This document shows positions 1 through 21,109 of a stretch of DNA of 26,257 nt, in pieces. The DNA is taken from NCBI GenBank assembly GCA_029974275.1, contig JARKSN010000334.1, positions 1-26,257 of the forward strand. Direction: 5' to 3'. How positions within the stretch are numbered: position 1 is the first letter of the stretch; each line of letters opens with the position of its first letter. Under the pieces are notes generated by a model. That model did no database searches, was not told the DNA's origin, and worked only from the letters and a program-made list of their open reading frames with translations. Position numbers and translations under genes: made by a program. Origin of the DNA: Candidatus Hydrogenedentota bacterium. GTDB lineage: Bacteria; Hydrogenedentota; Hydrogenedentia; Hydrogenedentales; SLHB01.

Positions 1-666
1 CCCCTGCGGATCCAACACCGTCAACGCCAACCGCACCGCCTGCGGCCTGCCCCAACCCCGACGCTGCGACCTCTCCTCCACCGGCGCGACCGGCGCCGGA
101 GGAGGCGGCAACGGCTGCCCCGGAACAAACGCCGGCGAAGGCGGAACAGGCATCCACAAATACGCCACCTCAAAATCCTTCACGCCATTCACCAACTCAA
201 AACTGCTCCTCCGGCCCAGCTTGACCGGCCTGCTCGCCACATCCTCGGCAGCCTGCGACGGAGCCAACAAAGGCAACGGCCCCTCGACCTGCGCCTCCTC
301 ACGGATCAACACCCCCCCCTGCTTCCGAGATCCCGGCTTCGTCCGATACCGCACCCACAACGCGCGCTTCCCCTCCCCATGCCGCACATCCATCGGCTGA
401 CCAATGACATAAAACTCCAACTCATCGCGCTTCCCCTCAAAAAGATGCCCCGCACCGCTCACCATGCTCTGCAAATCACGCGTCAACACACTCATGGCAA
501 TCCGAACATCCTGATACGCCGCACGATTCGACTCGCCCATCCGCCACGACCGAACCGACGTGTTGAATGCCTGATACACGCAAATCATCACCACCGAAAT
601 CAACGTCGTGGCGACCACAAGCTCCGCCAAAGTGAACCCCGCCTCACGACTACGGCAACGCAACAC
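1..666 (-). CDS. gspJ: Type II secretion minor pseudopilin J-like protein (3' end truncated by window edge)
   Basis: Not in the ORF track; translated by hand. The frame is open from GTG 666 (or TTG 663) to position 1: (M)LRCRSREAG|FTLAELVVATTLISVVMICVYQAFNTSVRSW...DVRIAMSVLTRDLQS...WGRPQAVRLALTVLDPQG. It has a prepilin cleavage motif with E+5, overlaps the gspI stop and follows G-H-I. Confidence 0.85.
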   Translation of the reverse strand, partial: MLRCRSREAGFTLAELVVATTLISVVMICVYQAFNTSVRSWRMGESNRAAYQDVRIAMSVLTRDLQSMVSGAGHLFEGKRDELEFYVIGQPMDVRHGEGKRALWVRYRTKPGSRKQGGVLIREEAQVEGPLPLLAPSQAAEDVASRPVKLGRRSSFELVNGVKDFEVAYLWMPVPPSPAFVPGQPLPPPPAPVAPVEERSQRRGWGRPQAVRLALTVLDPQG

Positions 667-1192
667 CCGCCCTCGCCTCCTCCGGAAGCCAAAGCTTATC
701 CGGATTAAACAACGTCTCCGCGCTCGCCTCATACCTCGCCCCAGCCCGCTCCCAACGCACCGTCGCCCAAATGCCGCCAATATACCGCTCCTTCAACATT
801 ACCAGCGGCTTGCCATCAGGACCCATCGGAACCGGCGGAGGCCCCCCCGGAAACGCCCCCGGAACAACGCCCCCCGGAACCATCGGCGGCAACGGCGGCA
901 TCGGAATCTTCACCAACGACACCTTCCTCGAATACGAAAACCGGGCAAAATCCCCCGCAAAATTGCCCGATTGAGTCCCCGGAACAACGACCGGCTGAAT
1001 CTCGACCTCCGATATCACCTGCTGCAAAAGAAAACGCGCCCACGTATAATCAGACGTCTGCGCCTGCGTCAAAGAAGCCTGACGAATCGAACGCTGCACC
1101 GCAAACACGCCCACGCTCAACACGCCCAACGCGACAACCGCCTCCAGCAAAATATACCCCGCTCCACAACGCCGCGACCTATCCCGCCACAT
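650..1192 (-). CDS. gspI: Type II secretion minor pseudopilin I-like protein
   Basis: Start re-called to ATG 1192: MWRDRSRRCGAG|YILLEAVVALGVLSVGVFAV. Prepilin motif with E+5 and a hydrophobic helix; lies between H- and J-like genes; the start overlaps the 3' end of gspH. Confidence 0.8.
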   Translation of the reverse strand: MWRDRSRRCGAGYILLEAVVALGVLSVGVFAVQRSIRQASLTQAQTSDYTWARFLLQQVISEVEIQPVVVPGTQSGNFAGDFARFSYSRKVSLVKIPMPPLPPMVPGGVVPGAFPGGPPPVPMGPDGKPLVMLKERYIGGIWATVRWERAGARYEASAETLFNPDKLWLPEEARAGVALP

Positions 1193-1706
1193 CGAACTGC
1201 CCCAAACGCCCCTTCGTCCGAATCGTGACCCGATCCCGATTCTTGCGCAACGCCACCGTCGCATAATCGCACGCCCCATTGGCATAAAAAGCGATAAACT
1301 GCGCCCCCTCCTCCTTATCCTTCCGGGCCGCAATCCGATCAATCTCGATCTCCTTCGGAAAATACGTCTTCCGCAAATACGGCTCCGGCGCCCGAAAAAA
1401 AACCTTCTCAAACCCATCCATCTTGGCAAAACGCATCACCCAATAACTATTCCGGCGCGTCTTCCGATCCTTGCTCAAATACACCCGGTACTCAACCCCA
1501 TCCGCCACCGCGCGCTCCTGCGCATACTTCATCACATTCAACAAATCGCGAACGCTCCGATCCGCCCGTATGCTCTTCACCGAATCCACAAACATCGGAG
1601 CAATCGACGCCGCAAGAATCGCGATAATCGCCGTGACAACCATCAGCTCAATCAGCGAAAACCCCGCCCGCGCGAAAACGACCTCTGCGCCGCCTCTTGC
1701 CTTCAT
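1179..1706 (-). CDS. gspH: Type II secretion minor pseudopilin H-like (GspH/FimT family) protein
   Basis: Start re-called to ATG 1706 (GAGG upstream). AG|FSLIELMVVTAIIAILA prepilin motif, 'YAQERAV' helix and a C-terminal 'IAFYANG' motif typical of GspH/FimT. Confidence 0.82.
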   Translation of the reverse strand: MKARGGAEVVFARAGFSLIELMVVTAIIAILAASIAPMFVDSVKSIRADRSVRDLLNVMKYAQERAVADGVEYRVYLSKDRKTRRNSYWVMRFAKMDGFEKVFFRAPEPYLRKTYFPKEIEIDRIAARKDKEEGAQFIAFYANGACDYATVALRKNRDRVTIRTKGRLGQFDVAG

Positions 1707-1800
1707 AACAACCTCAACAGAAAACGGCCCGCGCCACCCGCCCGGAAAACGCCCCCCGGACGCCGCGCCCAACGCCTCTCCGGCCCTCTGCCGGAAACCG

Positions 1801-2184
1801 TCACTCGCCTTCGATTTGCCAACTCGTGATATCGTCCGCCGTGTTCGGAGACTTGTCCGGCCCGCAAGAAAAAACGTCATAGACATCATGCGCGCCAGGA
1901 TGTTTGTATTGATAAGGAGAACCCCAAGGGTCCTTCTGCATGCGGCGCAAATACTTACGCTCACTCGTCATCAAATCGTTCAACGACTTGGGATACTTGT
2001 CATGATGATCAATCGCATACAAATCAATCGCATCCATCAACCGCTCCACATCCGCCTTCGCGCGAGTCTTCCGCGTCTCCTCCCCGCGCCCCCGAAACGA
2101 CAACGTGACCGTCCCGGCCAAAATGCCGATGATCACCGTCACCAAAATCAACTCGATCAAGGTGAAACCGCTTTTCTCCTGCAT
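1801..2184 (-). CDS. gspG: Type II secretion major pseudopilin G
   Basis: G|FTLIELILV prepilin motif, 'DPWGSPYQYKHPG' and C-terminal 'SCGPD...TADDITSW', which are GspG signatures; directly downstream of gspF. Confidence 0.92.
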   Translation of the reverse strand: MQEKSGFTLIELILVTVIIGILAGTVTLSFRGRGEETRKTRAKADVERLMDAIDLYAIDHHDKYPKSLNDLMTSERKYLRRMQKDPWGSPYQYKHPGAHDVYDVFSCGPDKSPNTADDITSWQIEGE

Positions 2185-2200
2185 ACGTCCACTCTCCGGG

Positions 2201-3401
2201 TTAAACCGAGGCCGACGAACTCAGCGTGAGCATCGGAAGCAACATGGCAATCACCAAAAAACCAATCACCACCCCCATCACCACAATCAAAACAGGCTCC
2301 AACAAAGCCGCCATCGCCTTGACCGCCCGATCCACCTCATTGTCATACGCATCGGCCAACCGCTTCGTCACCGCCCCCAAACGACCGCTCTCCTCCCCAA
2401 CAGCAAACATGCTGATCACCATCGGCGGAAAATGCGGACACTTCTGCAAACTCTCGCTAATGCTGTCCCCCTCCGTCACCCGCCCAAGAACCGTGCCCAC
2501 CTCCTCGGCAATCACCCGATTCGAAAGCGTGTCCTCCGTAACCCGCAACGAATTGAGAATCGGCACGCCATTTTCCAACAACGTCCCCAACGTACGCGCA
2601 AACTTGGCCATCTCATACTTCACGACGACCCCCTTCAACACCGGCATGCGCAACGCAACCTCATCCCGCCGCCGCCGTCCCCCATCCGTCCGCAAATACG
2701 CATACAGACCCGCCCCCACGCCAAACGCGACCCCCAGCACCGCCCACCAATACGACCCCATGAAATCACAAAGACCCATCACCACCCGCGTCGGCCACGG
2801 CAGCCTCGTGTTGAACTCCTCGAAAATCACCAAAAACTTCGGAAACACAAACGACACCAAAATGAAAACCGCGATCGTCCCAATACACACCAAAAACGCC
2901 GGATACACCATGGCGGACACCGCTTTGCCGCGCAACTCCTCCTCCTGATCGCCAAACGCGACAATACGCCACATCACCTCCTCAAGCATGCCCCCCGTTT
3001 CCCCCGCGCGAATGAGATTGCAATACATCGCCGGAAACACCTTCGGATGCCGCTCCAACGCCTCGGCGAACGTGCTGCCCTTCAAAATGTCATTGCGCAA
3101 ATGCTCAATGACAACCTTCATCTTCGGATTCGTCGTTTGATCGACCAGCGTGGCAAGCGCCCGCGTGATAGGCATGCCCGATTCATTCAGATTCGCCAAT
3201 TGCCGGAAAAAAACATTGCGATCCTGGAGCTTGACGCGCAACAACGCGCTGCGAAGCGCATCCTGCTTCTCGTCCCCCGTAAACTCCTCGATCGAAATGG
3301 GAAAATAACCCATGTCCCGCAAACGCGCAATCGCCGCCCGCTGACTCTCCGCCTCCATGACCCCGGTCATCGTTTCGCCCGGCGTCTTCTTCACCTCATA
3401 C

Positions 3402-3415
<14 letters not shown>
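2201..3415 (-). CDS. gspF: Type II secretion inner-membrane platform protein F (GspF/PilC family)
   Basis: Start re-called to ATG 3415 (MPQYKYEV). Two T2SSF repeats ('FFRQLANLNESGMPI...AGETGGML...AMVYP' and 'FARTLGTLLENGVPI...VGEESGRL...LEP') and three TM segments. Confidence 0.95.
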
Positions 3416-5144
<1,729 letters not shown>

Positions 5145-5185
5145 GCGAACAACTCCGATCGTTCATAAGTTCCAATAGAATCAAT

Positions 5186-5214
5186 ATGTTATCACACCCG
5201 CCGCGTGCGGGCAA
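5186..5214 (-). promoter_or_regulatory. Putative sigma70-type promoter of the gsp operon
   Basis: The minus strand reads TTGCCC (5214-5209), 17 nt, TAACAT (5191-5186), with an extended -10 TG, about 40 nt upstream of the gspE start. Confidence 0.55.
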
Positions 5215-5248
5215 GCGCCGCCGGCCCGCCCCCGCAAGCCCAACGCAA

Positions 5249-6286
5249 TCACTCCGGCCCCAGACCCTCGAGCGATGCCTTGGCCAACGAAGCCACCTCG
5301 GGACACTGAGCCGCCTCCCGATACAACGCGCGAGCATTCGCGGCATCAAGCAAACGAGTTCGATACACATGCCCCAATTCCACATTCAACTGCGCAACAG
5401 CTATCGGATTGACACACCGATCCCGCGCTTCCTTCAAGGCAGACGCAAGACGCGCCCCAGACCCAATATCCTCGCCCGGCTGCGCCACCCGACGCGCCAT
5501 GTCCAACGTCGCCCGAGACGCCGCCAACGTCTTCGGATACCGCGCGATCAACGCCTCAAAAGGAGCCAAACTCCCAGAACGATCCTGCCGCGCCGCATCC
5601 AACTCCTGCAAAGAGGCATACGAAAACGCCCGCCCCTCCGCCAACAATTCATGCCGCTCCCACGCTTCCGCACGATACGGCGAAGCCCCGAACGCCGACG
5701 TAAACTCCCGAATATATGTCTCGTACGCCGCATCCGCCTCGGCATACCAATGCAACTCCTCGTACGCCAACGACGCAAGCGCCAACTGCGCCTCGCCCGC
5801 CCGCGCATCCCCCCGATGCTGCTCGACCGCCATCTTCAACGCATGAAAAGCCCCCGTGAAATTCCCCTGCTCCCGCAAACGCGCCGCCGACGCCAAAGCC
5901 TGAACCAGCGGATCCTCCTCGGAAACATGATGCGCCACCAAAACGCCGGACGGAAAACCGGAATGCCGCTGCCCCAGCCACGCATAACTCGCCGCCACCA
6001 GCGCCACCGCCGCAACAGCGCCCGCAACGGCATACCGAAACGCCCGCGCACGCCGCGGCCGCGCCCCTTCGACAAGACGACGACGAACCGCCGGAGCCAG
6101 ATCAACGCCCAGCTCAGGCGCATCCCCAGGAATCGCGCGCACCAGCTCCTCCAACGCGCACAACTCCCCCCGCAACCCCGCATTCCGCCCCAACTCCCGC
6201 GAAAGAAACGCCCGCTCCGCCTCCGTCACCTCCTCATACAAACTGGCCGCCAACAACCCCCTCGCTCTTCGGAGACGAAACCACAT
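5249..6286 (-). CDS. Putative membrane anti-sigma factor with extracytoplasmic TPR-like domain
   Basis: Lies 23 nt downstream of the ECF sigma gene. Short N-terminal helical domain resembling an anti-sigma domain, one TM segment (YAVAGAVAAVALVAASYAWL), then TPR-like repeats ('AGEAQLALASLAYE', 'LIARYPKT', 'AQLNVELGHVY...ARALYREA'). Confidence 0.7.
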   Translation of the reverse strand: MWFRLRRARGLLAASLYEEVTEAERAFLSRELGRNAGLRGELCALEELVRAIPGDAPELGVDLAPAVRRRLVEGARPRRARAFRYAVAGAVAAVALVAASYAWLGQRHSGFPSGVLVAHHVSEEDPLVQALASAARLREQGNFTGAFHALKMAVEQHRGDARAGEAQLALASLAYEELHWYAEADAAYETYIREFTSAFGASPYRAEAWERHELLAEGRAFSYASLQELDAARQDRSGSLAPFEALIARYPKTLAASRATLDMARRVAQPGEDIGSGARLASALKEARDRCVNPIAVAQLNVELGHVYRTRLLDAANARALYREAAQCPEVASLAKASLEGLGPE

Positions 6287-6309
6287 AGCACTATTCCCTC
6301 ATGTCCCGA

Positions 6310-6873
6310 CTACGGCTCGCGCAAATCCTTCAATTCCTTCTGAAGCCGGCGCAACGCCCGAAACAAATGCACCTTCACGCTGCCCGTCGTGCACCCCAGC
6401 GCCTCGGCTATATCCGCAAGAGGCAACCCCTCATAATGCCGCAACATAAAAACATTCCGCTGCGACTCCGACAACCGCGCCAACGCCTTGCGCACCCGGA
6501 CATCTATCTCGCCCGCCCGAACCTGCTGCTCCGTCCGGCTGAACGCCGCACCCCCGCCCTCCGCGGAAATCGCCTCCTCCAGCGGCACATGACGAAAACG
6601 CTTCCGCCGCCGCAACAAATCAATCGCCTGATTCGCCGTCAACCGCACCAGCCACGGCAACAACCCGCCGCCGCGCGCCTCCCACGTATCAATCTTCCGA
6701 TGAACCTTGAGAAAAACCTCCTGCGACACATCCAACGCATCTTCCCGGTTGCCCGCAATCCGGTACGCCGTCGCGAAAACCTTCCCCTGAAACCGGCGCA
6801 CAAGCTCATCAAAAGCCCGCTCATCGCCCCGCTGAAACCTCAGGGCGATGTCCTCGTCGCTCTGCGACCGCAT
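6310..6873 (-). CDS. ECF-family RNA polymerase sigma-70 factor
   Basis: Start re-called to ATG 6873 (GGAGAAGG RBS). Region 2 'GDERAFDELVRRFQ...EDALDVSQEVFLK...WLVRLTANQAIDLLRR' and region 4 'LSESQRNVFMLRHYEGLPLADIAEALGCTTGSVKVHLFRA'; 187 aa. Confidence 0.95.
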   Translation of the reverse strand: MRSQSDEDIALRFQRGDERAFDELVRRFQGKVFATAYRIAGNREDALDVSQEVFLKVHRKIDTWEARGGGLLPWLVRLTANQAIDLLRRRKRFRHVPLEEAISAEGGGAAFSRTEQQVRAGEIDVRVRKALARLSESQRNVFMLRHYEGLPLADIAEALGCTTGSVKVHLFRALRRLQKELKDLREP

Positions 6874-6904
6874 CCCTTCTCCAGGATATTCCTCGCGCCC
6901 TTCC

Positions 6905-6933
6905 ATAACGTTCCCCATCGGGAAAAGGTTTAC
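6905..6933 (-). promoter_or_regulatory. Putative ECF-type (AAC...CGT) promoter upstream of the ECF sigma gene
   Basis: The minus strand reads GTAAAC (6933-6928), 17 nt, CGTTAT (6910-6905), about 30 nt before the ATG. This fits the general AAC-N16/17-CGT pattern of ECF promoters. Confidence 0.6.
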
Positions 6934-6954
6934 CCAACATTCTTCAAAAGACGG

Positions 6955-6977
6955 CTTGGGGAAACCCTTCCCCCAAG
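6955..6977 (-). terminator. Possible intrinsic terminator hairpin after the GT2 gene
   Basis: Minus-strand CTTGGGGGA-AGGGT-TTCCCCAAG stem (one G-U pair) about 17 nt after the GT2 stop, followed by CCGTCTTTT. The U tract is offset from the stem. Confidence 0.4.
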
Positions 6978-6994
6978 AAAGGTCTCCCCAACCC

Positions 6995-8023
6995 CTACGC
7001 CAAAAACAGATAATCCTCAAGCTCGCCATAGCCGCGCCCACGCATCCACGCACGGATTTCATCGCGAGCGCCCGGCGCGCCAACCGCCACGACAACAAAC
7101 GCCGCGCCCGGAACCGGCAAATCCTCCGGAGCCATTACACCATACCCATGAATGCAACGGCCAATCTTGCGCGGATGGATGTCCACCACCGCCAACGGCC
7201 TATGCTCCCCCCACTCACGCAACCAAGGCTTGCCCACCTCGCCCGCGCCCCACTGAAAAAACGGCCGATCCCCCGCAAGATACGACCGGGCCAAATAGTC
7301 ACGCTTGAGCGCGCGAAAACGCGCCGGACCATAGCGCGCATCCCGCATCGAAAACCGACCCGGCGATTCGCGCCACCGAAGCAAAGGACGAGGAACCTTC
7401 GCGAACCGCTTGCCCGCGAGAAACAACCGCATCACCAAATCATAATCCTCGGCCCAACCCCGATCGGTGTATCCGCCAACCTCATCCAGAGTTTCCCTGC
7501 GCAATAAAAAGGTCGGATGCGCAATCGGACACTCAACGAACAACTCTCGAACCATCGCAGCGTGATCCGTCAAACCATTGAGCCACGCCGCATACCGCTG
7601 CCGCCCCAACCCAACCCGCTCGCCAAAAACCGCAACCTCCGCCCCGCACAACGCAACATCCGGACGCTCCATCAACAACGCAATTTGCGCCTCCAACCGC
7701 GCAGGATGAGCAACATCATCCGCATCCATGCGCGCGATATACTCTCCCTGCGCCGCGTCGCACGCCCGGCGCAAAGCCTCGACAATCCCAACCGGACCCG
7801 ACCGGATAAGCCGAATGCGCGAATCCCCCCGCGCCAACGCCACGCCAATATCCCCCGAAGCGTCCGTCGAACCATCATCAAACAACAACAACTCCCAACA
7901 CGAATGCGTCTGCCCCTGAATCGACGCCACCGCCTCCATCAACGTGGCCGCCGCATTCCGGCACGGCATGACAACCGACGCCAAAGCCGCAGACCTCCCA
8001 AACCGCGCGCCGCTACGCCTCAT
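6995..8023 (-). CDS. GT2 glycosyltransferase with C-terminal Rossmann-like domain (B3GNTL1/QTGAL-like)
   Basis: GT-A motifs SVVMPCRN, DDGSTD, RMDADD and AEDYD; C-terminal 'WGAGEVGK...VDIHPRKIG'. ATG 8023 chosen as start. Confidence 0.88.
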   Translation of the reverse strand: MRRSGARFGRSAALASVVMPCRNAAATLMEAVASIQGQTHSCWELLLFDDGSTDASGDIGVALARGDSRIRLIRSGPVGIVEALRRACDAAQGEYIARMDADDVAHPARLEAQIALLMERPDVALCGAEVAVFGERVGLGRQRYAAWLNGLTDHAAMVRELFVECPIAHPTFLLRRETLDEVGGYTDRGWAEDYDLVMRLFLAGKRFAKVPRPLLRWRESPGRFSMRDARYGPARFRALKRDYLARSYLAGDRPFFQWGAGEVGKPWLREWGEHRPLAVVDIHPRKIGRCIHGYGVMAPEDLPVPGAAFVVVAVGAPGARDEIRAWMRGRGYGELEDYLFLA

Positions 8024-9901: not shown

Positions 9902-12151
9902 ATGTTAGGTCGATGGAACTACGCATACGGACTCGCGATCGCAAGCATGATCATTGCAGCCATGCTGATGCCGGCTCTGGCATGGGCCAAGCCCACCATC
10001 TCGGCGTCGGGCGACCACATCAACTTTGGCCGGCAACACGTGAACGAAGGGCCGACGGATGCCGCCGCCCTCGTAATCAGCAATATCGGCAACGGCCGCC
10101 TGACCCTCAACCCCGCCGGAATCGTGCCGGGGGGAGTCAGCCCCGACGACATGAAAGGACTCTGGCTGAGCGGACCCAACGCCAGCGACTTCACCATCGT
10201 GAGCAACGGCATCCCCGACTCGGGCATCGCCGCCGGAGAAAGCGCCGAGATCATGCTGGTCTTCGATCCGTCCGCCCGAGGCGTGCGCACCGCCACGCTG
10301 ACGATCTTCAGCAACCCGAATTACAAAGACACCGAAATGACCGTGGCCCTGACAGGCATTGGCTTCATTCCTGCCGCCCTCACGACGAATACCGTGGGCG
10401 AAGGAACCATTAGCGTGAGCAAGGATGCCCCGTACGACGTGGGCGACGAACTGACGCTCACCGCAACCCCAGCCGAAGATTGGGCCTTCGTAGGCTGGTC
10501 CGGCGATCTGACCGGCTCCGAAAACCCCGCCACCCTGACGCTCACCGGCGACGCCTCCGTGACCGCAACGTTCAAATGGACCGGCCCCGAACTCACCATC
10601 GTGAAAATCGGACAAGGCCGCGTCACCCAATCGCCGCCGCCGCCCTACAAAGCCGGCGCCGTGGTGACGCTCACCTTCAGCCCGTCGAACGGCCAACAGT
10701 TCTCCACCAAGCCCGACGTGCCGCCGGCGATGCCCGGCGATCCCGACGCGGGCTGGGTGTTCAGCCACTGGTCCTACACCCCCGACGCGCCACAATTCGC
10801 GGCCGCCTCGCTGGCGAACCCGGTCCAGATTACCGTAAACGCCGACACCACGATCTACGCGACGTTCCTGAACCTCGGCAGCACCTGCCACCCAACCGCT
10901 TCCCAAGAAGCGCAACTCATGTCGTTCCTGCGTAGCGCCTGGATCGGCTGGGACGGCGTATCGCAAGAACAGGCCGACCAAATGTTCGTAAAAGCGGAAA
11001 ACTACCTGAAGGATTTCCGCCAATACAACGAATGGTGGGGCCAAGAAGCGGTCTGCTGGTGGAACAACTTCAACCGCACAAGCGTCGGCGCGATTGACAA
11101 GGTCGGCGACGCCATGTGCTTCATGGGCATGCACATCATGGCCATGTCCATGAAAAGCGCCTGCATGCCCGGCGATCAAGAAACGATCGACGATCTCAAC
11201 CGCGTGCTCGACGCCGTCTACCGCAACATCATGATCACCGGAACCCCAGGACGCACCGCGCGCTTCTCGGGCCCGTCAAACAACGCTGCATACCAATGGT
11301 ACTACGGCAGCTACAGCAACGGAGCCTATGCCGGCGTCGCCCCATGGACGGACTACACCTGGCTGGGCTATCCGTCGCGCGACACGCAGACCGGCCTGTT
11401 CACTGGCTTGGCCGCATGCCTGAAGTACTGCACCGACGAGGCCGTCGTGGCCCGCACCCGCGCCATCGTCGAAATCATTATCGACCGGCTCATCGCCGAC
11501 AACTGGAGCATCCTCGACGGCAAAGGACACACCACCGCCAACAACTCCACGCTGCAAGCGCTGCAATACCGCGTCGCGTACAAGGCCAACCCGACCAAAT
11601 ACGCCAGCTTCCTAAACTCCATCAACTCCCACAACCTGTCGCTTTCGACAAACTACAACCTCTACAACACCAACTACTGGCAAAACAACCTGGACTGGAT
11701 GCGCGGCATCGGCATCACCATGCTCGAAACCAATCCAACCAAAATGACCTCCTTCGGCGTCACCTGGAACAACCGTTACCTGTCACGCCGCTACGACATG
11801 AACGGACTTCTCGCCGCGGCGACATGCCTCTTCGACCCCAAAACCGGAGTCGTGCCGGCAGACGCCTACGCGACGCTGCAAGGAGCCTTGGTCTGCGCGC
11901 CCGATCCCGTCCAGTGGTACCGCGCCGTCAACCTTTCCGTCGACCCGCGATTCACGGTCTACAACGCAACCTACGTGAACCAGGCCGCATTGCCGCATCA
12001 ACGCGCCCACGACGATTGGGATTGGCAGCGCTCGGCGGCCTTGGCCAAGCAAGGAGACAACAGCTTCGCCTACCAGTACCCAGGCTTTGACGTGTACACA
12101 ACGTACTGGATGGCCCGCGTGGCCGGCGTCATTCCGCCGCCAGCCCAATAA
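9902..12151 (+). CDS. Secreted multidomain protein: signal peptide, Ig-like (ASH/choice-of-anchor D-like) domain, two InlB-B/bacterial-repeat-like domains, unassigned ~420-aa C-terminal domain
   Basis: GAAAGGA RBS and a signal peptide ending ALAWA. Ig-like pattern 'INFG...ISNIGNGRLT...LSGPNASDFTI...IAAGES...VFDPSARGVRTATLTIFSN...VALTGIG'. Repeat pattern 'YDVGDELTLTATPAEDWAFVGWSGD...NPATLTLTGDASVTATF' with a second, insertion-bearing copy. The C-terminal domain is W/Y/N-rich. Confidence 0.85.
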   Translation: MLGRWNYAYGLAIASMIIAAMLMPALAWAKPTISASGDHINFGRQHVNEGPTDAAALVISNIGNGRLTLNPAGIVPGGVSPDDMKGLWLSGPNASDFTIVSNGIPDSGIAAGESAEIMLVFDPSARGVRTATLTIFSNPNYKDTEMTVALTGIGFIPAALTTNTVGEGTISVSKDAPYDVGDELTLTATPAEDWAFVGWSGDLTGSENPATLTLTGDASVTATFKWTGPELTIVKIGQGRVTQSPPPPYKAGAVVTLTFSPSNGQQFSTKPDVPPAMPGDPDAGWVFSHWSYTPDAPQFAAASLANPVQITVNADTTIYATFLNLGSTCHPTASQEAQLMSFLRSAWIGWDGVSQEQADQMFVKAENYLKDFRQYNEWWGQEAVCWWNNFNRTSVGAIDKVGDAMCFMGMHIMAMSMKSACMPGDQETIDDLNRVLDAVYRNIMITGTPGRTARFSGPSNNAAYQWYYGSYSNGAYAGVAPWTDYTWLGYPSRDTQTGLFTGLAACLKYCTDEAVVARTRAIVEIIIDRLIADNWSILDGKGHTTANNSTLQALQYRVAYKANPTKYASFLNSINSHNLSLSTNYNLYNTNYWQNNLDWMRGIGITMLETNPTKMTSFGVTWNNRYLSRRYDMNGLLAAATCLFDPKTGVVPADAYATLQGALVCAPDPVQWYRAVNLSVDPRFTVYNATYVNQAALPHQRAHDDWDWQRSAALAKQGDNSFAYQYPGFDVYTTYWMARVAGVIPPPAQ

Positions 12152-12238: not shown

Positions 12239-12952
12239 TCACCTGCCCAACAGAACGTGCGTCGCCCAAAAACGAGCCAACGCCGCAAACGTGCGAAAAA
12301 GACGGGGAAAATTGAAAAACTGAGACTTGCCATGCGCCCGCTGAAAATGATGCACCGGCGCCTCCACAAAACGCCAGCCCGCCCGCCGAAATTTGTACAT
12401 CATCTCAACGCAAATCATGCCCGTGTCGCTGACCAGATCGATCCGCTCAAGCGCCGCCCGCCGAATCAAACGAAAATCACAATCGGTGTCCCGAACGCCA
12501 AGACCAAACGCGATCTTGACAACATAATGATACAAACGCCCAATCACGATCCGATGAAGCGGATCATGACGCACAATCTTGTACCCCTGCACAATGTCGA
12601 CATCGGGCCCGGCCCTCTCCAACAACGCCTCAAGCTCACGCACATCGTACTGCGCATCGCCGTCCGTATAGAAAATCCACTCCCGCGTGGCCGCCGCAAA
12701 CCCGCTGCGCAACGCGCCCCCATACCCCCGATTGACGGCATGACGAACAATCCGCACCCCCGGAAACCGCGCCCCAATCTCCGCCAAAACCGCCTCGTTT
12801 TGAGGACCCCGGCTCCCATCGTCGACAATCGAGAGATCATAATCCAGCCCCAACCGCTCCGCCGTCCGCACCGCGAGCAACACCATGCTCCCCATCGTGC
12901 CCCAATCGTTGTAATAAGGAAAAAAAATCGAAACAGACGGCCTCTCGCTCAT
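12239..12952 (-). CDS. GT2 glycosyltransferase, DPM1/polyprenol-phosphate glycosyltransferase-like
   Basis: Motifs SIFFPYYND, VDDGS, NRGYGGALRSGF, YTDGDAQYD, DTDCDFRL and 'VEAPVHHFQRAHGKS'. Start is ATG 12952 or GTG 12958. Confidence 0.88.
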   Translation of the reverse strand: MSERPSVSIFFPYYNDWGTMGSMVLLAVRTAERLGLDYDLSIVDDGSRGPQNEAVLAEIGARFPGVRIVRHAVNRGYGGALRSGFAAATREWIFYTDGDAQYDVRELEALLERAGPDVDIVQGYKIVRHDPLHRIVIGRLYHYVVKIAFGLGVRDTDCDFRLIRRAALERIDLVSDTGMICVEMMYKFRRAGWRFVEAPVHHFQRAHGKSQFFNFPRLFRTFAALARFWATHVLLGR

Positions 12953-12994
12953 CGCCACCGGCCCCCTTCAAACATTCCATCGCAAACGCGCGAA

Positions 12995-13984
12995 CTATTT
13001 CAGATACACATCCAAACGCGACTCAAAAAATTGCCGCGTTCGCAAAAGCCCCTCGCCAATCAACGTCCGGGGCTTCCACCCAAGACGCTCCCGGATGCGC
13101 GCATTCGAGATCGACACATCGCCCACGTCGAGCCGAACCCAGTCGCTCGACCATGGAACATGCTCGATCGACCCCCTCCCAAAAACCTCCGCGACCATCC
13201 CCGCAAACTCCACGATCGAATGCTCCGCATCGCCCGCGGCAAACAACACATCGCCCCACGCCGCGGGACACGTCGCCGCCGCCACAAGCGCATCCACGCA
13301 ATCATCCACATACAACACGTTGCGGCGCTGCGCCCCATCGCCAAACACCGTAAGAGGCCGATCCTGCAACGCAAGACCGATAAAATGATTCAACACGCCC
13401 GACTGACTGCTCTTGATGTTCGCGCGCGGCCCAAATACATTCGCCAAACGAACCACGCACGTCTTCAACCCATGAACGCGATGATATACAAGATGATACT
13501 TCTCCGCCGCGCTCTTGTTCGCCGAATATATGTCCAACGGAAACTCGGAATGACCCTCATCTATCGGATTGCGCACCATGCGCCCGCACTGCGTGCTCGT
13601 GCCCACATACACCACAACCGCCTCGGGATTGACCCCGCGAACACACTCAAGAACATTCATGGACCCCCGACAATTCACGTCAATGTCGAAAAACGGATCC
13701 TTCAACGAATACGTATGCGACGTGTGCCCCGCGCAATTAAAAATGAAATCCTGCTCACAAACCGCCGGCCCCACAAAATTGATGTCGCGAATGTCGTTGA
13801 CAATGACGCACATCCCCTCATCGCATCCCGCCACATTGGCCACATTGCCGCCCCCTTGGGACAACAACGAATCAAGAACCGTCACTCGGGCCCCCAGTTC
13901 CCGGCATCGGATCGCAAGATTGCTCCCAATAAACCCGAGCCCGCCGATCACCAAAACCCGTTTGCCAGAAAACTCCGTGTGCAT
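12995..13984 (-). CDS. NAD-dependent nucleotide-sugar epimerase/dehydratase (extended SDR)
   Basis: GGLGFIG nucleotide-binding motif, YSANK (YxxxK), RLANVFGP and [14 protein letters not shown]. Start re-called to ATG 13984 (GAGGGG RBS). Confidence 0.92.
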
Positions 13985-14101
13985 GCCCCTCATTCCATGC
14001 GGCCTCGCGTCGCCCCCGCCATTACGCCCCTCCACCAAACAAAAACGACTATCCCCCATTCCCCGCAACGTTTCAAGCCCACAACCCGCCGCGGAATAAA
14101 A

Positions 14102-20299: not shown

Positions 20300-21109
20300 T
20301 CACAACCAACACGCCGCGCGCGCCGCAGCGCAATTCGGACAGCCCCACTCACACAAATACCGCTCCGGCGCTTCCCGAAACGCCGCCGCCGCCGCTTCGA
20401 CAAGCGCTTCCATATCGGCAAGCAAGACGCGCGCACGCCCCAACCGCCCCTCCTGAAACACGCCACAGCCCCGAAGCAAACCCTCCATCTTCGGAAACCC
20501 GCGGCTGCACAACGGCGAAACCCCAATCCGAACCTCCGTGACACAACCGTCGCGATACAACAACCCCACAGGCTCAAGCCCAGGAGGACAAACCGATAGA
20601 TACGGAACATCCGCCATCACCTCGGCAAGATGCAGCAACGTGCACGACTCCAGCCCGCAGCCAATCAACAACACCTTGCCCCCGCGACGACGCAACCTGT
20701 CCAAAGGCGAATTCCAGCCCGCCGGCTCGCAACGCTCATGCCCCGCCAACGTCGCGTCAACCCCCGCCCCAATGCCGCACGCCGAATGCGTCGGATGCAA
20801 ACTGCGCACCACGCCAGGCTGCTGACGCATCCACTCCGGAAAAGCGCCAATCAACGGATGACAAGACGCGTCCACACGAAACGGCGGCCGCCCCGATCCC
20901 AACTGACTGTACGTGTGCGTAGGCGCATACAAACTTCCCTCGGGACCCAGAACCGTCAAATACGCACGCAGCAAACCCGGCGTCTCCCCCCGAGAAAGCC
21001 CCATCGCCCGCAACGACGTATGCACAAAAAGAGCATCGCCCACACGAACGCCCATGTCGCGCAACTGCCCCGTCAAACGGTCCGTGGTCCATGCCGCCCT
21101 GCCGAACAT
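20300..21109 (-). CDS. AAC(3)/YokD-family N-acetyltransferase (Antibiotic_NAT-like)
   Basis: Motifs GDALFVHTSLRAMG, PEGSLYAPT, IGAFPEW, RSLHPTHS and GGKVLLIGC...CTLLHLAE; C-terminal LCEWGCPNC. Confidence 0.85.
   Translation of the reverse strand: MFGRAAWTTDRLTGQLRDMGVRVGDALFVHTSLRAMGLSRGETPGLLRAYLTVLGPEGSLYAPTHTYSQLGSGRPPFRVDASCHPLIGAFPEWMRQQPGVVRSLHPTHSACGIGAGVDATLAGHERCEPAGWNSPLDRLRRRGGKVLLIGCGLESCTLLHLAEVMADVPYLSVCPPGLEPVGLLYRDGCVTEVRIGVSPLCSRGFPKMEGLLRGCGVFQEGRLGRARVLLADMEALVEAAAAAFREAPERYLCEWGCPNCAAARAACWL

What the first reader, a model, noticed from the sequence alone, without database searches (positions are those of the whole stretch)
6995..8023. Bacterial GT2 resembling the eukaryotic queuosine-tRNA galactosyltransferase (B3GNTL1/QTGAL): possible bacterial tRNA glycosylation enzyme
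Seen: a GT-A domain followed by 'RYAAWLNGLT...LFVECPIAHPTF...VGGY...AEDY...PLLRWRESP' and a C-terminal domain 'WGAGEVGK...AVVDIHPRKIG...FVVVAVG...GYGELEDYLFLA'. The protein has no TM segment and lies outside any polysaccharide cluster. Recalled, not verified here: human B3GNTL1/QTGAL has a collinear series of motifs (RYTRWINQLT, PTWF, PEDL, LLLYRHHP, IWNAGKQGR, FCDVDENKI, EGQDFLHF at the extreme C-terminus) and galactosylates queuosine in tRNA-Tyr. Inference: this may be a bacterial member of that clade acting on tRNA or another non-polysaccharide acceptor. As far as I know, Q-glycosylation is described only in animals.
Basis: partly seen in the sequence, partly recalled or inferred. Interest (0 to 1): 0.7.

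Follow-up and report, generated by a model that had tools for sequence, protein, structure and literature searches.

The report
Bacterial relative of queuosine-tRNA galactosyltransferase
This gene encodes a soluble sugar-transferring enzyme from a widespread, unnamed bacterial family that resembles, along its whole length, the animal enzyme that adds galactose to the tRNA base queuosine, so some bacteria may also add sugar to queuosine, although no activity is shown here.

Summary
The ORF (6995-8023, minus strand, 342 aa) and every motif quoted from it are real. It belongs to an almost always single-copy GT2 family found in many bacterial phyla. I fetched eukaryotic sequences whose homologs NCBI names QTGAL/B3GNTL1. 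They align with the family end to end (25% identity; HHalign 99.9%). The likeness is not generic: a eukaryotic profile of the acceptor-side region scores the family at median 18.1 bits against 2.1 for 148 other close GT2s, while the donor-binding core does not discriminate. A tree of the catalytic domain leaves the sister relation unresolved (not rejected, p-AU 0.47). The genome has tgt, queA, queC, queE and queG. Functional evidence is weak. que genes lay near the gene in 1 of 196 loci, about chance. tgt is near-universal (79/80 carriers, 78/80 non-carriers). Eight of nine Chloroflexota carriers lack queA but have a TGT that looks queuine-inserting. Verdict: homology well supported; queuosine-tRNA glycosylation is the best single guess (about 40%), untested. 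The scan reported this family before in another genome (e1-5118551).

The parts
6995..8023 (-). Gene for a 342-aa soluble two-domain GT2 of the QTGAL-like bacterial family
   Evidence: (AlphaFold2 mean pLDDT 94.6)
7481..7978 (-). GT-A donor-binding core (PF00535, residues 16-181); its N-terminal part is generic and does not separate this family from other GT2s
   Evidence: eukaryotic N-core profile: family median 44.8 bits, non-family 59.75
7715..7726 (-). DxD motif, residues D100-D103; D100, D102 and D103 are invariant in 101 bacterial and 43 eukaryotic rows; inferred metal/NDP-sugar binding
   Evidence: role from PMC7185993 passages
7349..7624 (-). Acceptor-side region (about residues 134-225) specifically shared with eukaryotic QTGAL: Y144-x-x-W147-x-N149, P166, P170, E192-D193, L214, R218
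7445..7453 (-). xED motif (A191-E192-D193); D193 is the inferred catalytic base of an inverting GT-A
   Evidence: E and D invariant in both groups
6998..7267 (-). C-terminal Rossmann-like beta/alpha domain (about residues 253-342) with a W-G-A-G-x-x-G loop, distantly like the Rex and PglD/VioB N-terminal domains; collinear with the C-terminal domain of eukaryotic QTGAL to the last strand
6956..6991 (-). 16-pair hairpin followed by a T-rich tail just after the stop; possible intrinsic terminator
   Evidence: 6 sites found against 5.9 expected in shuffles, so weak

Best explanation
The protein is a cytoplasmic, inverting GT-A glycosyltransferase of the bacterial family most similar to eukaryotic QTGAL, and it glycosylates queuosine-34 of one or more GUN-anticodon tRNAs. 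Shown: fold, motifs, specific full-length homology to QTGAL, orphan single-copy gene, host with Q-pathway genes. Inferred from GT-A chemistry: D100-x-D102 holds a divalent metal and an NDP-sugar, and D193 deprotonates the acceptor hydroxyl for an SN2 transfer that gives a beta-glycoside. Inferred from homology only: the Y144/W147/N149 helix and the P166-P170 loop bind the cyclopentenediol of queuosine, and the C-terminal domain helps hold the tRNA. The sugar need not be galactose and the tRNA need not be tRNA-Tyr.
For: Eukaryotic seeds match the bacterial family profile over columns 4-335 of 337 (E 1e-40 to 1e-47), and their named homologs are QTGAL/B3GNTL1. P0001 against one seed: 25% identity over 359 columns; profile-profile 99.9% over 318 columns. 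Part-wise test on 101 family and 148 non-family GT2s: mid region 18.1 vs 2.1 bits median (70 of 101 vs 1 of 148 reach 15 bits), C-terminal part 11.1 vs -1.4. The full eukaryotic profile ranks family members in 25 of the top 25 and 45 of the top 50, and ranks this gene first in its own genome (78.8 vs 73.9 bits). With a eukaryotic query the Atlas lists eukaryotic B3GNTL1-like clusters, then bacterial 327-340-aa GT2 clusters, one matching in size, length and taxon a cluster hit by P0001. One copy per genome in all five groups searched, apart from split genes in draft assemblies, with variable neighbours, which fits a stand-alone housekeeping enzyme. 163 of 166 carrier genomes tested have tgt (+53, 60+61, 107); two of the three exceptions have queA. 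All 8 queA-less Chloroflexota carriers have a TGT without the pocket valine, the pocket type that sits beside the queuine-salvage gene qng1 in two other genomes.
Against: No activity data. Only about 25% identity, and many acceptor-side positions differ (E164/C165/H169 vs H/G/M; bacterial R98, R199, K240), so substrate may have shifted. Que genes next to the gene in 1 of 196 loci, about chance. tgt is as common in non-carriers (78 of 80), so co-occurrence says little. 8 of 9 Chloroflexota carriers lack queA, none has qng1, 0 of 5 tested has the QPTR transporter, and their TGT pocket does not literally match the published queuine-salvage pattern. The catalytic-domain tree does not recover family plus eukaryotes as a clade. 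P0001's own C-terminal domain scores only 1.6 bits on the eukaryotic C-terminal profile, and P0001 ranks 88th of 249 on the full profile. Its charge (pI 8.8) is not unusual among the genome's GT2s.
Confidence: 0.4

Rival explanations
1. True homolog of QTGAL, but acting on another soluble acceptor: a different RNA position or modified nucleoside, a free base or cofactor, or a small diol. The tRNA-queuosine specificity arose only in eukaryotes.
For: Orphan, single-copy, soluble; no que linkage; carriers without queA; residues differ around the acceptor site. Scattered links point several ways: fusion to a 2-thiouracil desulfurase domain (P0331), to a CYTH domain (P0277) and to a methyltransferase (P0298) whose stand-alone homolog lies in 8 family loci. 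The C-terminal domain resembles dinucleotide-binding Rex domains.
Against: The residues shared only with QTGAL lie in the acceptor-side region and the C-terminal domain rather than in the donor core. No partner enzyme of a small-molecule pathway recurs across phyla among the neighbours annotated.
Confidence: 0.3
2. A cell-envelope transferase (LPS, EPS, glycolipid or protein glycan) that is merely encoded away from its cluster.
For: This is the default role of bacterial GT2s. Best family and structure hits are EpsE, TuaG, SpsA, chondroitin and heparosan synthases. PglD/VioB-like Rossmann modules occur in glycan-pathway proteins. A few loci have a GT4 or an epimerase next door (L070/L186, L047, L050, L193).
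Against: All those hits are below cut-off or cover mainly the GT-A core (Foldseek query TM about 0.5). The family is a separate clade. No flippase, polymerase or multi-GT cluster recurs among the roughly 240 neighbour genes annotated, of about 900 called. Strict single-copy retention in 76 of 109 genomes of the phylum is unlike variable glycan genes.
Confidence: 0.2
3. The likeness to QTGAL is convergent: a GT2 core and a common Rossmann module were joined independently, and the function is unrelated.
For: The GT-A tree leaves the eukaryotic clade on a long unplaced branch. Similar Rossmann modules exist in other proteins of the genome (C158 hits).
Against: Specific similarity in the mid region, which all 148 comparison proteins also possess. 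Same order of elements down to the last strand. The AU test does not reject one clade.
Confidence: 0.1

Closest known systems
QTGAL / B3GNTL1 (eukaryotic queuosine-tRNA galactosyltransferase, GT2)
   Same: Length (about 335-360 aa), two-domain architecture, DxD and xED motifs, Y-x-x-W-x-N helix, W-x-A-G-x-x-G loop and terminal E-x-x-D; soluble.
   Different: About 25% identity; distinct residues around the acceptor site; bacterial host; donor, acceptor and tRNA unknown. QTGAL uses UDP-galactose and Q34 of tRNA-Tyr (passages of bioRxiv 10.64898/2026.06.28.735034).
Glutamyl-queuosine tRNA-Asp synthetase (GluQ-RS/YadB)
   Same: The described bacterial hypermodification of Q34 (PMC13602947 passages list Q and gluQ).
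   Different: Unrelated fold; adds glutamate (recalled). The host genome has no match over the GluQ cut-off (217 of 277 bits).
SpsA/EpsE/TuaG-type and chondroitin/heparosan synthase GT2 domains
   Same: GT-A core fold (Z 22-26 over about 215-240 residues).
   Different: No match to the C-terminal domain as a unit; curated cut-offs missed by far; this gene is not in a glycan operon.
QTMAN/GTDC1 (queuosine-tRNA mannosyltransferase)
   Same: Same proposed acceptor base.
   Different: Forms an alpha linkage on the allylic hydroxyl; a GT-B fold enzyme (recalled); no similarity was tested or expected.

Membership tests
GT2 (GT-A fold, inverting) | PF00535 domain with DxD and xED motifs in a GT-A fold | tested here: met
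QTGAL/B3GNTL1 clade | Full-length collinear similarity, including the C-terminal domain | tested here: met
   for P0001 alone the C-terminal part scores weakly (1.6 bits), so the link runs through the family profile
QTGAL/B3GNTL1 clade | Similarity beyond generic GT2 motifs, against close non-family GT2s | tested here: met
   (the C-terminal contrast is partly circular, since non-family rows were chosen for lacking that domain; the mid-region contrast is not)
QTGAL/B3GNTL1 clade | Reciprocal best match | tested here: met
   best hit of the eukaryotic profile in the own genome; Atlas reciprocal look-alikes. A database-wide reciprocal search was not run.
QTGAL/B3GNTL1 clade | Monophyly with eukaryotic QTGAL | tested here: inconclusive
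   10% of bootstrap trees; p-AU 0.466
QTGAL/B3GNTL1 clade | Host has Q-containing tRNA (TGT and Q supply) | tested here: met
   genes only: tgt, queA, queC, queG over cut-off, queE by BLAST, four GUN tRNAs; queD, queF and folE not searched
QTGAL/B3GNTL1 clade | Transfers galactose from UDP-Gal to Q34 of tRNA-Tyr | not testable with these tools
   needs an enzyme assay or tRNA LC-MS
Named bacterial glycan GT2 equivalogs (EpsE, TuaG, MftF, WcaA and others) | Score over the curated NCBIfam cut-off | tested here: not met
   19 families hit, none over cut-off
Bacterial glycan-cluster transferase | Conserved location in a polysaccharide operon | tested here: not met
   only part of the neighbour genes were annotated (about 240 of about 900)

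The most novel reading that the evidence does not exclude
Glycosylated queuosine is not an animal invention: a QTGAL-like family spread patchily over Hydrogenedentota, Gemmatimonadota, Myxococcota, Verrucomicrobiota, Chloroflexota, Bacteroidota and Gammaproteobacteria puts a sugar on Q34 of bacterial tRNAs, and eukaryotic QTGAL descends from it. This would be an undescribed bacterial tRNA modification, missed because the bacteria whose tRNAs are well studied probably lack the gene.
Probability: 0.35. Interest if true: 0.8.

Novelty: new variant of a known kind. Interest (0 to 1): 0.55.

Why it matters
In the papers seen, galQ and manQ are described for animals, and the bacterial Q derivatives listed are Q and gluQ. 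A bacterial QTGAL relative makes two things testable. One is whether bacteria carry glycosylated queuosine. The other is where the human enzyme came from. It also offers small bacterial proteins for a structure: searches of the PDB returned only generic GT2s and no entry named as QTGAL. A cultured carrier exists: Aureibacter tunicatorum WP_309940588.1 is a full-length member (345 bits on the family profile, 95 on the eukaryotic profile). If the acceptor is something else, the family is still an uncharacterised conserved enzyme whose assay would show how tRNA specificity arose.

Tried and rejected
Search of longer proteins for fusions or algal forms: filled by multi-GT2 proteins; its one full-length hit is a UvrA-GT read-through matching the uvrA-GT gene order in Gemmatimonadota, and the algal fusions of earlier findings were not retrieved. 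Fusions P0302 and P0383: no Pfam family on their N-terminal extensions, which read like shadow frames. Co-loss with tgt in the own phylum: uninformative (tgt 108 of 109, queA 107 of 109); family f7 lacks the gene (0 of 10) but keeps tgt and queA. Co-occurrence in Chloroflexota: 9 of 9 filtered carriers have tgt against a base rate of 150 of 171, not significant. Carriers vs non-carriers in three further groups: 79 of 80 vs 78 of 80 (80 of 104 carriers tested). Que-gene linkage reported by earlier finding e1-5118551 was not seen in my loci (0 of 196 with queA); no Bacteroidota genome set could be sampled beyond one Aureibacter locus. Viral or phage members: only partial matches. Protein charge as a sign of RNA binding: not distinctive. 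Rfam: no match in the window. Fold searches: only GT-A core matches; the C-terminal domain was not folded and searched alone. Literature: nine searches gave no title or abstract on bacterial QTGAL homologs; Zhao et al. 2023 Cell and Yuan et al. 2019 PNAS are not held, and the former may contain a phylogenetic survey that I could not see.

Full report
Observation. window:6995-8023 (minus) is a 342-aa ORF containing all motifs quoted from it. Pfam gives GT2 at residues 16-181. None of 19 NCBIfam hits reaches its cut-off. There is no clear hydrophobic segment. AlphaFold2 on a 34-row alignment gives a confident model (pLDDT 94.6) with a GT-A domain and a small C-terminal beta/alpha domain. Close homologs are labelled mostly Candidatus Hydrogenedentes. 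The window is contig C197 of a 4.38-Mb genome scored 100% complete.

The family. Full-length members occur in records labelled Hydrogenedentota/Nitrospiraceae, Gemmatimonadota, Myxococcota, Chloroflexota, Verrucomicrobiota, Planctomycetota, Acidobacteriota and Proteobacteria (80 loci) and in Bacteroidota. With a profile of the C-terminal 209 residues, orthologs were found in 76 of 109 genomes of the own phylum (80 matches minus 4 weak-only), 10 of 171 in the phylum of an Anaerolineales record, 18 of 201 for an Opitutaceae record, 59 of 151 for a Polyangiaceae record and 27 of 301 for a Thiohalomonas record. I name these groups from the record titles of their centre genomes. Copy number is one, apart from split genes. 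No full-length viral member was found.

Link to QTGAL. A short-motif scan of metagenomes returned 60 loci. Six held intron-less ORFs that match the bacterial profile nearly end to end (five over columns 4-6 to 334-336 of 337, one over 3-290; E 1e-40 to 1e-47); the others were exons, partial ORFs or chance hits. Using these six as query, 17 of the 120 listed homologs carry the names queuosine-tRNA galactosyltransferase or B3GNTL1-type names (ids listed). The human protein was not among them, so the tie to the assayed enzyme rests on database naming. P0001 aligns to one seed at 25% over 359 columns, and the two alignments match at 99.9% over 318 columns. A model of the seed shows the same order of elements in the C-terminal domain. 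To test whether this is generic, I split a 43-row eukaryotic profile in three and scored 101 family proteins and 148 non-family GT2 proteins, the latter picked as the closest GT2s from my searches and the genome. The donor core favours the non-family set (59.75 vs 44.8 bits). The mid region (18.1 vs 2.1) and the C-terminal part (11.1 vs -1.4) favour the family. The pattern [YF]-x-x-W-x-N occurs in 92 of 101 family, 43 of 43 eukaryotic and 10 of 148 other proteins. The C-terminal contrast is partly built into the choice of the comparison set; the mid-region contrast is not. In its own genome the gene is the top hit of the eukaryotic profile and the only one extending past column 240. P0001 is one of the more distant members (rank 88 of 249).

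Phylogeny. On the GT-A domain alone (55 rows after dropping 34 of 89 for length of branch or redundancy), the family (98/94) and the eukaryotes (100/99) are each clades, but only 10% of bootstrap trees join them (FastTree on all 89 rows likewise). The AU test does not reject their union (p 0.466). The sister relation therefore rests on shared features, not on the tree.

Context. The gene lies between a divergent htrA and a downstream ECF sigma/TPR/type II secretion block. The sigma gene follows it in 22 loci of close relatives, one being the window itself. Elsewhere the neighbours change by lineage: uvrA and gyrA in Gemmatimonadota, asnS (convergent) or a methyltransferase in Myxococcota subgroups, single cases of queE, elp3 and an rRNA methyltransferase. 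A tblastn of tgt, queA, queC, queE, queG and gltX against 196 loci (80 with up to 6 kb flanks, 116 with 1.5 kb; a few are duplicates) found one que neighbour; my rough expectation by chance is about one. Fusions among cluster representatives include a 2-thiouracil desulfurase domain, a methyltransferase and a CYTH domain, each a singleton cluster.

Queuosine supply. The genome has tgt, queA, queC, queG, queE and all four GUN tRNAs, and no GluQ over cut-off. tgt was found in 163 of 166 carriers tested (exceptions G003, G110, G711), but also in 78 of 80 non-carriers. A possible refutation came from Chloroflexota: 8 of 9 filtered carriers lack queA against 44 of 171 overall, none has qng1, and 0 of 5 has QPTR. 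All 8 have a TGT with a GGSLG pocket in place of GGLSVG. That pocket lacks the valine that the Bartonella paper describes as blocking queuine (PMC11570991 passages), and the same pocket type lies beside qng1 in G125 and G150. It does not literally fit the paper's GG[LS][AS]G pattern, these genomes are probably two or three related lineages, and four non-carriers have the same TGT. So the hypothesis survives but gains little.

Mechanism. By GT-A chemistry (PMC7185993 passages), D100-x-D102 binds metal and donor and D193 is the base of an inverting transfer, as reported for QTGAL (SN2, beta-galactoside from UDP-Gal). Residues shared with QTGAL beyond the core cluster on the acceptor side and in the C-terminal domain, whose nearest solved relatives are Rex and PglD/VioB Rossmann domains. 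I infer that these build a binding site for Q34 in an anticodon loop. This last step is inference from homology only: 0.4 for Q-tRNA, 0.3 for another soluble acceptor, 0.2 for envelope glycan, 0.1 for convergence.

Literature. I saw keyword passages of bioRxiv 10.64898/2026.06.28.735034, PMC7185993, PMC11755703, PMC11570991, PMC13602947, PMC12518689 and PMC11705514, and search listings only for the rest; no supplements. They place galQ/manQ in animals and list Q and gluQ for bacteria. Nine searches showed no paper on bacterial QTGAL homologs, but the founding Cell paper is not held and may survey them. This scan reported the same family earlier in another genome (e1-5118551); that note is not independent evidence.

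Verdict. Real gene; well-supported bacterial counterpart of QTGAL by sequence; function untested and not backed by context. New variant of a known kind, interest 0.55, with a cheap decisive experiment.

Noticed in passing
L264-L271 and L289-L291 (Chloroflexota carriers G177, G186, G222, G238, G254, G278, G137, G213): These queA-less genomes have a TGT with a GGSLG pocket and an FDELPP segment; six have a second TGT match, divergent in the three inspected. None has qng1, and 0 of 5 tested has QPTR, so the queuine source is unexplained.
   Followed up: partly
Myxococcota handles: Two or more tgt matches in 24 of 37 carriers against 12 of 37 non-carriers (my count from the tables; split genes included, kin not independent). 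A second TGT paralog may travel with the gene.
   Followed up: no
L033:7149-7808: queE lies directly downstream of the family gene on the same strand in one Gemmatimonas record.
   Followed up: partly
L048, L062, L209, L211, L213-L216, L218, L232: A gene of the class II tRNA-synthetase cluster lies near the family gene in a group of mostly Myxococcota loci; the three scanned (L048, L062, L216) are asnS, convergent with it. tRNA-Asn is a Q tRNA.
   Followed up: partly
P0298; L063, L064, L204, L205, L207, L210, L212, L226: An uncharacterised SAM-dependent methyltransferase lies in the same loci as the family gene and is fused to it in one protein.
   Followed up: partly
P0331: Fusion of a 2-thiouracil desulfurase (PF04463) domain to a full-length family member; a singleton sequence.
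   Followed up: no
window 20300-21109 (-): Gene with an aminoglycoside 3-N-acetyltransferase family domain (PF02522, E 5e-46) between tatD and the pyruvate dehydrogenase E1 gene.
   Followed up: no
window 9902-12151 (+): 749-aa protein with a signal-like N-terminus, an Ig-like domain, InlB B-repeats and an unannotated C-terminal 400 residues.
   Followed up: no
window 12239-14068 (-): A two-gene unit: a polyprenyl-phosphate-sugar-synthase-like GT2 and an NAD-dependent epimerase, after truB-ribF.
   Followed up: no
window 1-7098 (-): ECF sigma factor, TPR protein and a type II secretion/pilin block (ATPase, GspF-like, several pseudopilins); the order after the GT gene is conserved in close relatives.
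   Followed up: partly
L065: Record titled Klebsiella pneumoniae MAG, but its family member resembles the Myxococcota ones; the label is doubtful.
   Followed up: no
G037-G046 (family f7 of the own phylum): All 10 genomes of this small-genome family (about 3.3 Mb) lack the gene while keeping tgt and queA: a natural negative control for tRNA analysis.
   Followed up: partly
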